Origin: Escherichia coli
GTDB lineage: Bacteria; Pseudomonadota; Gammaproteobacteria; Enterobacterales; Enterobacteriaceae
NCBI RefSeq assembly: GCF_045037415.1
Contig: NZ_CP173438.1
Direction: 5' to 3' (one strand)
Length of the DNA stretch: 64,000 bases
The notes under the pieces were generated by a model. It worked only from the letters and a program-made list of their open reading frames with translations. It was not told where the DNA came from and ran no database searches. Numbering within the stretch: the first letter of the stretch is position 1; each line of letters opens with the position of its first letter. Both the position numbers and the translations under genes were made by a program. This document shows, piece by piece, positions 62,376-63,415 of the stretch.

Positions 62376-62545
62376 GGAATCAGGTTCTCCTTTTTGTTAT
62401 GCATTTTCCTGTTAAGATTTTTCTAATCACGTTGTTTTTATCCAGGCATTTCTCTTGTATGTACTTTCAGTATAAGAGATTTATACAAGAAAGCATTTAA
62501 AAAGGCATTTATATAAAAATCCACCTGTATCTGTTGCTATTTCTG

Positions 62546-62995
62546 TCACACTTTCCCCTGTCGTTTACACCAGATAATCGTTGTCACTTTTGTGACCTCT
62601 GAGAAGATAAACAACGAAATATTTAAGACCAGATCCTGTGAATAAAAATAATTAAGTAACAACGGTATTACGGAGATTGAACAGCTTACGGTAGCAAAAC
62701 GCATAAACTCCTGAATCGCCAAAAAAGAGAAACTAAATAATTTTTGTCTTAAAAAACATTGCGCAGAAAAGAATAAAGAGAACAATAATACTATTTGTAG
62801 CGTAACAGTGGCGACTGCATAAGCGTAAAAACCGCCTTCAACACCGATATCCTTAAGTAAAGAAAGTGAATGAACGATATCGGAATAAAAAGGGATACGA
62901 CCATTACCAAGCGAGTAGAACAGATATGTGGCTATCGCGATAACATCCATAACACCCCAAAAAAGAAGAATGTATTTTTTATATTGACGTTGCAT
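62546..62995 (-). CDS. hypothetical small membrane protein (about 4 TM)
   Basis: 149-aa ORF in AT-rich islet; strongly hydrophobic segments; no recognisable family. Confidence 0.4.
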   Translation of the reverse strand: MQRQYKKYILLFWGVMDVIAIATYLFYSLGNGRIPFYSDIVHSLSLLKDIGVEGGFYAYAVATVTLQIVLLFSLFFSAQCFLRQKLFSFSFLAIQEFMRFATVSCSISVIPLLLNYFYSQDLVLNISLFIFSEVTKVTTIIWCKRQGKV

Positions 62996-63037
62996 AAAGT
63001 AAATCCTTTTTACGAAAACAAATATTACCAGGAATTA

Positions 63038-63235
63038 TTATAATTGCGGGCGTTTTTGGATTAACACTCCACCCGTATTTTTTAAACCTCTGTCAGCTAT
63101 ACCTTCACTAAATAAGACATCGATACGCCCTTTACTTTTATCGTGATACAGAATACTGCATGAGATACACCTTATACCCTCTTTGGATTTACGAAAATCT
63201 AACCAATAACGACCATCATAAAATACCCACTCCAC
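63038..63235 (-). CDS. hypothetical small protein, possibly 3' part of a frameshifted gene
   Basis: 65-codon ORF beginning at GTG; a 34-codon ATG-initiated ORF (63239..63340, MIKIDEIDFF...) lies immediately upstream in another frame. Confidence 0.3.
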   Translation of the reverse strand: MEWVFYDGRYWLDFRKSKEGIRCISCSILYHDKSKGRIDVLFSEGIADRGLKNTGGVLIQKRPQL

Positions 63236-63383
63236 ACCTGTTTTATATTAATTATCCAATCATTATAACCTGTTGGTTTTTTCCTAATAGTTCAGTAACT
63301 TCGGACTCTGAACATCCTTCGAAAGCGAAAAAATCTATTTCATCAATTTTTATCATATTCAATAATCCATTATTTATGACATT

Positions 63384-63406
63384 AAAAACCGGGGCAAATA
63401 CCCCGG
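63384..63406 (-). terminator. rho-independent terminator after metH
   Basis: Minus-strand CCGGGGTATTTGCCCCGG hairpin followed by T5 tract, 10 bp after metH stop. Confidence 0.7.
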
Positions 63407-63415
63407 TGTTATCAC

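What the first reader, a model, noticed from the sequence alone, without database searches (positions are those of the whole stretch)
62376..63415. AT-rich ~1 kb islet between yjbB and metH encoding a small membrane protein and a split small ORF
The metH-yjbB spacer is about 1 kb and is visibly AT-rich compared with the flanking genes, the usual signature of horizontally acquired DNA. It contains a 149-aa, roughly four-TM protein with no recognisable family and, just upstream, a small ORF. The arrangement (small soluble protein plus small membrane protein, own terminator context) is reminiscent of toxin/immunity or abortive-infection-type two-gene cassettes, but I cannot assign a family from sequence alone.
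Basis: partly seen in the sequence, partly recalled or inferred. Interest (0 to 1): 0.6.

Follow-up and report, generated by a model that had tools for sequence, protein, structure and literature searches.

The report
Likely orphan T6SS immunity gene islet
The AT-rich kilobase between metH and yjbB is a real islet found in about a fifth of complete E. coli genomes (all carriers I recognise are phylogroup B2); its intact small membrane-protein gene belongs to an undescribed family that elsewhere sits directly behind a type VI secretion (VgrG-linked) protein domain, so it is most likely a leftover immunity gene against a toxin that E. coli itself does not carry.

Summary
Window 62376-63415 has 34% GC against 55% in yjbB. 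It holds an intact 149-aa four-helix membrane gene (M) and a 106-aa gene broken by two single-A deletions. K-12 has an unrelated 219-bp spacer. The islet is in 1132 of 5426 complete E. coli genomes, including ST131, ST95, ST1193 and Nissle, always as one chromosomal copy at this site.

M matches no Pfam, NCBIfam, PADLOC, PHROG or PDB entry, but it belongs to a real family (194 representatives; AF2 pLDDT 88). dN/dS is 0.13 between E. coli and E. whittamii.

In Kosakonia, Pseudocitrobacter and a related enterobacterium, the same metH-yjbB site holds a 269-aa DUF8093 gene that overlaps an M gene. The conserved C-terminal half of that protein also forms the tip of VgrG spikes in an unnamed enterobacterium, Serratia, Burkholderia and Rahnella. 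The whole protein sits inside Enterobacter T6SS clusters. In all 10 loci that carry this half, an M gene follows directly.

Best reading (about 0.55): M is a polytopic immunity protein, kept in E. coli without its toxin. The 106-aa partner is unrelated and often inactivated. No experiment or paper was found.

The parts
62376..63415 (.). Whole metH-yjbB spacer, 34% GC. The part with no counterpart in K-12 runs from the metH stop codon to about 62510. The roughly 130 bp nearest yjbB (62376 to about 62510) still aligns weakly with the K-12 yjbB upstream region.
62546..62995 (-). Intact gene for a 149-aa, four-transmembrane-helix inner-membrane protein ('M'; identical to WP_001189565.1). An AAGGA Shine-Dalgarno sequence lies 8 nt before the ATG. 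It carries every invariant residue of the family (W13, R99, S106, E133, K136) and the near-invariant ones (G14, D17, P35, S73, Q95). Proposed orphan T6SS immunity protein.
63038..63356 (-). Pseudogene of an Escherichia-only 106-aa soluble protein (intact form WP_000590023.1 / P0027). Function unknown. It is not related to DUF8093 or to any partner of M elsewhere.
63277..63282 (-). First frameshift site: a run of A6 where intact alleles have A7 (GGA AAA AAA CCA). It causes a premature TAA after 34 codons.
63241..63244 (-). Second frameshift site: a run of A4 where intact alleles have A5. UM146 (ST95) has only the first deletion. The window (ST131 allele) has both.
63388..63407 (-). metH intrinsic-terminator-like hairpin (ACCGGGG-TATT-TGCCCCGGT followed by TTTTT). 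It is conserved in E. whittamii and absent from the K-12 spacer, which has its own hairpin.

Best explanation
The islet is the Escherichia remnant of a two-gene type VI secretion effector-immunity module that occupies the metH-yjbB site in several Enterobacteriaceae.

In the complete module, the first gene encodes a DUF8093 protein of about 269 aa. Its variable N-terminal half resembles the N-terminus of a T6SS phospholipase-like cargo effector. Its strongly conserved C-terminal half of about 118 aa is elsewhere fused to, or encoded right after, the VgrG spike. I infer that this half is the toxin domain. The second gene overlaps the first and encodes M, a 140-150-aa inner-membrane protein with four helices and both termini in the cytoplasm.

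I infer that M is the cognate immunity protein. It would neutralise the toxin at the periplasmic face of the inner membrane or within it, perhaps through its conserved G-x-I-P-F-Y-S-D loop and the short periplasmic helix 37-50.

E. coli strains carrying the islet (the recognisable ones are B2), E. whittamii and at least one other enterobacterium keep M alone. In the window strain (ST131 allele) M is therefore an orphan immunity gene, which may protect against T6SS attack by DUF8093-armed neighbours such as Enterobacter or Kosakonia. The adjacent 106-aa gene is a decaying passenger of unknown function.

Shown here: the anatomy, the family, the synteny, the gene linkage and the purifying selection. 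Inferred: toxicity of the C-domain, the immunity function of M, M's site of action, and any cross-protection.
For: 1. M is a real, conserved gene. A profile search found 194 representatives at E<=1e-3, nearly all 136-170 aa and full length. The alignment has invariant W13, R99, S106, E133 and K136. The AF2 model has pLDDT 88 and pTM 0.77. dN/dS is 0.13 for E. coli against E. whittamii.

2. The full pair occupies the same locus elsewhere. The order metH - DUF8093 (269-288 aa) - M - yjbB is found in Kosakonia cowanii, Pseudocitrobacter faecalis, a soil MAG and another enterobacterium. M overlaps the end of the upstream gene by 26 nt.

3. There is a T6SS link. In Enterobacter the order is TssG - ClpV - kinase - DUF8093 - M - VgrG. 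The C-half of DUF8093 is the extreme C-terminus of VgrG in an enterobacterium (L013), in Serratia (L018) and in Burkholderia cepacia (L032). In Rahnella (L034) it is a separate ORF right after VgrG.

4. In 10 of 10 distinct loci with the C-half, an M-family gene (E 1e-42 to 1e-48) lies directly downstream, or after one TTR-like ORF of about 100 aa. Burkholderia and Rahnella were checked as predictions after the rule had been formulated.

5. There is a pattern that fits toxin-domain swapping. At the same position in two T6SS clusters, the effector keeps the DUF8093 N-half but carries a phospholipase-like C-terminus. It is followed by an ankyrin protein and then by M. This is what is expected if a new toxin-immunity unit displaced the old toxin and left its immunity gene behind.

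6. Pairwise identities of the C-half and of M correlate across loci (r=0.80). For example, L013 against Burkholderia gives 86% for the C-half and 56% for M. The two are inherited together.

7. Orphan copies at the same site occur in E. whittamii and in L027/L028.

8. No detectable DUF8093 remnant is present in the E. coli islet. No DNA-level match to three effector modules was found in 5426 E. coli genomes.
Against: Nothing here is experimental: neither toxicity of the C-half nor protection by M has been shown, and I found no paper on either family.

The C-half is hydrophilic and better conserved (51-86%) than M (24-65%). Its activity is unknown, and it has no Pfam (library used here), NCBIfam or PDB sequence match.

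More distant M-family members stand alone among housekeeping genes, for example K. pneumoniae between pgm and kdpE and L029. The wider family may therefore have another primary role.

E. coli M is only 35-41% identical to effector-linked enteric M proteins, so cross-protection is uncertain.

In all T6SS contexts VgrG is also nearby, so an accessory role tied to VgrG is not excluded by linkage alone.

Absence of DUF8093 from E. coli was tested only at DNA level and through a word-indexed protein search.
Confidence: 0.55

Rival explanations
1. M is a small membrane protein with a function unrelated to immunity. It could be a housekeeping or stress-related membrane factor, or a T6SS accessory component that works with VgrG or DUF8093 in the producer. 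On this reading E. coli keeps it for that function.
For: Stand-alone distant members lie among core genes: K. pneumoniae between pgm and kdpE and L029. AFDB lists many in Pseudomonas and Yersinia. Invariant charged or polar residues within helices (D17, R99, E133, K136) would suit a conserved mechanistic role. M is retained next to VgrG even where the C-half is absent. It is under strong purifying selection in E. coli without any toxin gene.
Against: The linkage is specifically to the C-half, including loci with no VgrG nearby (the metH-yjbB modules). The overlapping or 4-nt-overlap gene junctions are typical of effector-immunity pairs. M diverges quickly while the flanking genes are conserved. 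To my knowledge, no known T6SS adaptor or chaperone is a polytopic membrane protein.
Confidence: 0.27
2. This is the first reader's idea: the 106-aa soluble protein and the 149-aa membrane protein form a self-contained toxin/immunity or abortive-infection cassette.
For: The two genes are adjacent on the same strand within an AT-rich islet with a terminator upstream. Intact versions of both exist in some strains.
Against: The 106-aa gene is frameshifted in the window and in at least 544 of 1129 carriers, while M stays intact. E. whittamii and L027 keep M without it. The 106-aa protein is found only in Escherichia, whereas M pairs with DUF8093 elsewhere. There are no PADLOC, PHROG or phage matches.
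Confidence: 0.05
3. The islet is a small 'immunity island'. Both genes are orphan immunity genes against different foreign toxins, and the 106-aa gene is decaying because its toxin is no longer encountered.
For: The 106-aa protein is small, soluble and charge-balanced (16 K+R, 16 D+E). It is lineage-restricted and repeatedly inactivated at homopolymer runs. These features are compatible with a dispensable immunity gene. Another M-family member sits in a run of small same-strand ORFs (L016).
Against: There is no homologue outside Escherichia, no family match and no toxin partner for the 106-aa protein. This is pure conjecture.
Confidence: 0.08
4. The spacer is non-functional AT-rich filler with chance ORFs.
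For: Both ORFs are annotated only as 'hypothetical'. One of them is broken.
Against: dN/dS is 0.13. The family has 194 representatives with conserved motifs. The fold prediction is confident. A good Shine-Dalgarno sequence is present.
Confidence: 0.02

Closest known systems
Orphan T6SS immunity genes: Vibrio cholerae orphan immunity arrays, Bacteroidales acquired interbacterial defence clusters, and Enterobacter Tri1 without Tre1 (the last noted in PMC10763514)
   Same: An immunity-type gene is kept without its effector. It is low-GC and lineage-specific, it is under purifying selection, and homologues sit directly downstream of T6SS effector domains in other taxa.
   Different: There is a single gene at a housekeeping intergenic site rather than an array near a T6SS or on a mobile element. 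The cognate effector family (the DUF8093 C-half) is uncharacterised. No protection has been demonstrated.
Polytopic inner-membrane immunity proteins of membrane-acting toxins: TsiV2 for VasX, Tsi5 for Tse5, Tmi for Tme, CdiI of EC93, and immunity proteins of pore-forming colicins such as Cai (from my own knowledge)
   Same: A small integral membrane protein with 3-4 helices is encoded just after the toxin gene, which points to a toxin that acts at the inner membrane.
Evolved (specialised) VgrGs with C-terminal toxin domains, such as V. cholerae VgrG-3 and P. aeruginosa VgrG2b (PMC6899460)
   Same: The DUF8093 C-half occupies the extreme C-terminus of VgrG after the DUF2345/TTR-like region, and a small gene follows directly.
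   Different: The same domain also occurs as a free cargo protein with its own N-terminal domain, and as a stand-alone ORF of about 110 aa. Its activity is unknown. It is absent from the window.
Pfam DUF8093 (PF26362), and the architecture DUF8093 + Phospholipase-like (PF26363)
   Same: The upstream partner of M in other genera carries this domain, according to precomputed annotations.
   Different: It is not present in the E. coli islet. The Pfam library available to me did not contain the model, so its boundaries and description could not be checked.

Membership tests
T6SS effector-immunity pair (M as the immunity protein) | The immunity gene lies immediately downstream of, and is usually translationally coupled to, the effector or toxin-domain gene. 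| tested here: met
   In relatives this holds in 10 of 10 loci with the DUF8093 C-half. M is directly downstream, with overlaps of 4-26 nt, or follows one TTR-like ORF. It is not met in the window itself, where the effector gene is absent.
T6SS effector-immunity pair (M as the immunity protein) | The effector is physically or genetically tied to a T6SS delivery component (VgrG, PAAR or Hcp). | tested here: met
   The C-half is fused to VgrG in L013/L014, L018 and L032 and is adjacent to VgrG in L034. The full protein lies between the kinase and VgrG in Enterobacter T6SS clusters.
T6SS effector-immunity pair (M as the immunity protein) | The effector is toxic and is secreted in a T6SS-dependent manner. 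| not testable with these tools
   This needs expression and secretion assays. No literature was found.
T6SS effector-immunity pair (M as the immunity protein) | The immunity protein binds or neutralises the effector and protects against it. | not testable with these tools
   The only indirect evidence is co-variation of identities (r=0.80).
Orphan immunity gene | The immunity homologue is present while the cognate effector is absent from the genome. | tested here: inconclusive
   There is no DUF8093 remnant in the islet. Three effector modules gave no DNA-level match in 5426 E. coli genomes. A protein-level scan of E. coli genomes, or of this genome beyond the 64-kb window, was not possible.
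Type II toxin-antitoxin or abortive-infection two-gene cassette | The two genes co-occur as a conserved pair and match known TA or defence families. | tested here: not met
   The 106-aa gene is often frameshifted or absent while M persists. There are no PADLOC, PHROG or Pfam hits.
Horizontally acquired genomic islet | Deviant base composition together with patchy presence among strains. | tested here: met
   GC is 0.34 against 0.51 for the window as a whole. The islet is present in 1132 of 5426 genomes and absent from K-12, B, O157 and O111.
Horizontally acquired genomic islet | Signs of a mobility mechanism, such as flanking repeats, an integrase, a tRNA site or an IS element. | tested here: not met
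   There are no direct or inverted repeats and no mobility gene. The same site is occupied in other genera. This points to an old occupant of the site with loss or replacement by homologous recombination. Divergence rises to 89% identity in the last 130 nt of metH.

The most novel reading that the evidence does not exclude
The DUF8093 C-half and the M family form a previously undescribed T6SS toxin-immunity system. A small hydrophilic toxin would be countered by a four-helix polytopic membrane protein, which implies a new inner-membrane target or mode of action. The orphan M gene, present in every islet-carrying E. coli genome found (including ST131, ST95, ST73 and ST1193), would give real cross-protection against T6SS attack by gut Enterobacteriaceae and so contribute to the colonisation success of these lineages. 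A bolder variant is that the stand-alone core-genome M-like proteins (for example Klebsiella between pgm and kdpE) are the toxin's natural target, and the immunity proteins are decoys derived from them.
Probability: 0.25. Interest if true: 0.65.

Novelty: new member of a known kind. Interest (0 to 1): 0.45.

Why it matters
If this reading is right, a gene annotated 'hypothetical' in more than a thousand complete E. coli genomes, including ST131, ST95, ST73/Nissle and ST1193, becomes a candidate defence against contact-dependent killing by other gut Enterobacteriaceae. It would also expose a new T6SS effector-immunity family (the DUF8093 C-domain plus a polytopic membrane partner) that is spread over Enterobacterales and Burkholderia and has no known activity. 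Both proposals can be tested directly with standard co-expression and competition assays. The work also corrects a propagated misannotation: M-family proteins of about 140 aa are labelled 'arginine:ornithine antiporter'.

Tried and rejected
- **Family libraries for M.** Pfam, NCBIfam, PADLOC and PHROGs gave no hits.
- **Family libraries for the intact 106-aa protein.** There were no hits, apart from one weak chance WDR11 match.
- **PDB sequence searches.** Single sequences and profiles for M, the 106-aa protein and DUF8093 gave nothing meaningful.
- **106-aa protein as a DUF8093 remnant.** I tested whether it was a remnant of DUF8093 or related to the TTR-like ORFs. BLASTP, tblastn, hmmsearch --max and hhalign were all negative.
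- **Other features in the spacer.** Rfam gave only a sub-threshold L20-leader match. A repeat search for insertion scars found none. Promoter-like sites were no more frequent than in shuffled sequence.
- **Literature.** Searches for the locus, the RefSeq accession, DUF8093/PF26362 and related T6SS surveys found nothing on either family.
- **Effector modules and mobile elements.** DNA searches of E. coli genomes for three effector modules were negative. Phage tblastn with M found nothing. Plasmid tblastn with M returned only two hits, both records that look like chromosome pieces filed as plasmids: an E. coli M copy and a distant K. pneumoniae member.
- **Not run.** I did not run the costly metagenome scan, because linkage was already 10 of 10.

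Full report
**What is there.** The window region 62376-63415 is the spacer between yjbB (60744-62375, minus strand) and the 3' end of metH (stop codon at 63416-63418, minus strand). GC falls to 0.30-0.39 in 200-nt windows, against 0.52-0.62 in the flanks. The spacer has GC 0.34, yjbB 0.55 and the whole window 0.51.

Two features lie on the minus strand. The first is an intact 149-aa ORF at 62546-62995, with an AAGGA ribosome-binding site 8 nt upstream. The second is a split ORF at 63038-63362. In ST131 genomes with an identical islet, RefSeq annotates the first as WP_001189565.1 'hypothetical protein' and the second as a 'frameshifted' pseudogene. A terminator-like hairpin follows the metH stop directly (63388-63407).

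**The split ORF.** Intact alleles encode a 106-aa soluble protein (WP_000590023.1, my P0027). Comparing alleles shows that the window has lost one A from an A7 run (63277-63282) and one A from an A5 run (63241-63244). UM146 (ST95) has only the first deletion. Of 1129 carrier genomes, 544 share the window's double-deletion sequence exactly, and at least 154 share one exact intact allele.

The protein has homologues only in Escherichia, including one in E. fergusonii at 79% identity. It has no family or PDB match. E. whittamii lacks the gene altogether and has a REP-like sequence in its place. This gene is dispensable and its function remains unknown.

**Distribution in E. coli.** K-12 has an unrelated 219-bp spacer. 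Sequence similarity stops at the metH stop codon and resumes weakly about 130 bp upstream of yjbB. The islet is present in 1132 of 5426 complete genomes, always as a single chromosomal copy at this site. Carriers named in the output include O25b:H4-ST131 (100% identical to the window), ST95, ST1193, Nissle 1917 and UM146, which I know to be phylogroup B2. K-12, B, O157:H7 and O111:H8 strains lack it.

There are no flanking repeats or mobility genes. One strain has an IS1 inserted in the islet. The last 130 nt of metH are only 89% identical between the window and K-12, against 92-100% (mostly 94% or more) further in. This suggests two old haplotypes that are exchanged by homologous recombination, rather than a recent insertion.

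**The 149-aa protein (M) is a real member of a real family.** A word-indexed search found only Escherichia relatives. A scan of one genome per species then found relatives at 29-39% identity in Kosakonia, Pseudocitrobacter, a soil MAG and an uncultured enterobacterium. A profile built from these recovered 194 representatives at E<=1e-3 among 1.84 billion proteins, almost all 136-170 aa and matching end to end.

A 58-sequence alignment has invariant W13, R99, S106, E133 and K136, and near-invariant G14, D17, P35, S73 and Q95. The window protein has all of them. With this alignment AlphaFold2 gives a confident model (pLDDT 88, pTM 0.77) made up of four long helices and a short helix at 37-50.

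The K/R-rich N-terminus, loop 83-90 and C-terminus place both ends in the cytoplasm. That puts the conserved G-x-I-P-F-Y-S-D loop and helix 37-50 in the periplasm (the topology is my inference from the positive-inside rule). dN/dS is 0.13 between the E. coli and E. whittamii alleles.

**What M sits next to elsewhere.**

1. *Same site, complete pair.* In Kosakonia cowanii, Pseudocitrobacter faecalis, the MAG and another enterobacterium, the order is metH - 269-288-aa gene - M - yjbB. M overlaps the end of the upstream gene by 26 nt. The upstream protein carries Pfam DUF8093 (PF26362) in the precomputed annotations.

2. *Inside T6SS clusters.* In Enterobacter the order is TssG - ClpV - Ser/Thr kinase - DUF8093 (267 aa) - M - VgrG.

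3. *Two halves of the DUF8093 protein.* An HMM built from the 269-aa proteins shows two parts. The variable N-half weakly matches the N-terminus of a 488-aa 'DUF8093 + Phospholipase-like' protein. That protein lies at the same position in other T6SS clusters, followed by an ankyrin protein, then M, then VgrG. The highly conserved C-half of about 118 aa forms the extreme C-terminus of VgrG in an enterobacterium (L013/L014) and in Serratia (L018), each followed by M.

4. *Predictions.* I then predicted that the partial Burkholderia cepacia hit would be followed by an M gene. It is: VgrG C-terminus - a 96-aa TTR-like ORF - M (E 5e-44) - Rhs. A tblastn of plasmids found a further case on Rahnella aquatilis megaplasmids: VgrG - C-half ORF - M (E 3e-42, 4-nt overlap) - lipase - PAAR.

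Altogether, in 10 of 10 distinct loci with the C-half, M lies directly downstream. Across these loci the pairwise identities of the C-half and of M correlate (r=0.80). The C-half is always the better conserved of the two.

**M without the C-half.** This occurs in E. coli, in E. whittamii, in another enterobacterium at the same metH-yjbB site, and after the phospholipase/ankyrin pair. It also occurs in more distant stand-alone genes: L029, K. pneumoniae between pgm and kdpE, and L016, which lies in a run of small ORFs.

**Interpretation.** The domain logic has three parts:

- a delivery-type N-domain that is shared with another cargo effector;
- a C-domain that can be fused to the VgrG spike;
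- a small downstream gene, translationally coupled, that travels with the C-domain.

This is the standard signature of a T6SS effector-immunity pair. The arrangement with the phospholipase-like C-terminus, the ankyrin protein and M fits a toxin-domain replacement that left the old immunity gene behind. A polytopic immunity protein suggests that the toxin acts at or in the inner membrane, although the C-half is hydrophilic and its activity is unknown.

On this reading, the E. coli islet is what remains of the module after loss of the effector. There is no remnant in the islet. Three effector modules gave no DNA-level match in any complete E. coli genome. M would then be an orphan immunity gene kept by selection.

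I give this reading about 0.55. The main rival (about 0.27) is that M has another membrane function, possibly as a T6SS accessory. Three things keep it alive: the stand-alone distant members, the invariant intramembrane charged residues, and the complete lack of experiments. The 106-aa gene is unrelated to M's partners elsewhere and is repeatedly inactivated, and there is no defence-system or phage signal.

**Comparison with what is known, and novelty.** The nearest concepts are three: orphan T6SS immunity genes, polytopic immunity proteins for membrane-acting toxins, and evolved VgrGs. I found no paper on DUF8093, on the M family or on this locus. Two T6SS surveys that I read do not mention them.

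This is a new family within a well-known kind of system, not a new kind of system. Its interest is moderate. It is more than a routine hypothetical gene, because it is fixed in medically important E. coli lineages (ST131, ST95, ST73, ST1193) and the hypothesis is easy to test. However, new T6SS effector-immunity families are found often, and the key functional steps here are inferred, not shown.

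Noticed in passing
E. coli genomes NZ_CP019000.1 (strain Ecol_AZ153), hits H1/H41, corresponding to window 62520-63400: An IS1B element is inserted within the islet in this one ST131-like genome. The match is split into two pieces that span about 1.66 kb.
   Followed up: no
L004 (E. whittamii) about 5745-5960, corresponding to window 63040-63360: E. whittamii keeps the metH terminator and the M gene with its ribosome-binding site. In place of the 106-aa gene it has an unrelated stretch of about 220 bp that contains a REP-like sequence (GCCGGATGCGCTACGCTTATCAAGCCTA).
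   Followed up: partly
L035 6989-7426 (K. pneumoniae WP_004152228.1, between pgm and kdpE); AFDB hits in Pseudomonas, Yersinia and K. oxytoca: Distant M-family proteins of about 140 aa are annotated 'arginine:ornithine antiporter'. That is implausible for a four-helix protein of this size and looks like a propagated misannotation. These copies stand alone among core genes.
   Followed up: partly
PLSDB records NZ_CP134663.1 (4.9 Mb) and NZ_OP378648.1 (316 kb, carrying fur-fldA-seqA-pgm-kdp): Both are filed as plasmids but look like chromosomes or chromosome fragments. Plasmid hits to them should not be read as evidence of mobility.
   Followed up: no
window 63416-63545 compared with K-12 L002 2296-2425: The last 130 nt of metH are only 89% identical between the window and K-12, against 92-100% (mostly 94% or more) further upstream. 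MetH ends ...YDAE (TAA) in the window and ...YDAD (TGA) in K-12. This raised divergence next to the islet suggests old haplotypes or a recombination tract.
   Followed up: partly
L013 5645-5995 (116 aa) and L032 588-878 (96 aa): A small ORF with a shared sequence motif (VVGLAPGPA...SY(V/I)GTP(S/T)WPP) lies between the VgrG C-domain and M in the loci that continue into a DUF6531-Rhs gene. The same motif precedes the C-domain inside the Burkholderia VgrG fragment P0203. I take it to be a TTR-like adaptor module, but no fold prediction was made.
   Followed up: no
L016 1-12486 (NCBI GCA_000384395.1): An M-family member lies inside a run of more than ten small same-strand ORFs, most with no Pfam hit, next to an IS110 transposase. 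The layout is reminiscent of an immunity-gene array.
   Followed up: no
L034 6055-6390 (Rahnella aquatilis pMEM40-1): Here the DUF8093 C-half is an ORF of its own that starts right after the VgrG stop codon. The open frame begins at 6055, the base after the VgrG stop (VgrG CDS ends at 6054), and the annotated start is at 6106. This could be a VgrG extension detached by a stop codon or a genuinely free small protein.
   Followed up: no
window 62376-62545: No terminator-like site separates the M gene from yjbB, so transcription from the islet may read into yjbB. The part of the yjbB upstream region nearest the gene still aligns with K-12 (shared CTTATACTG and the ribosome-binding-site region).
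   Followed up: no
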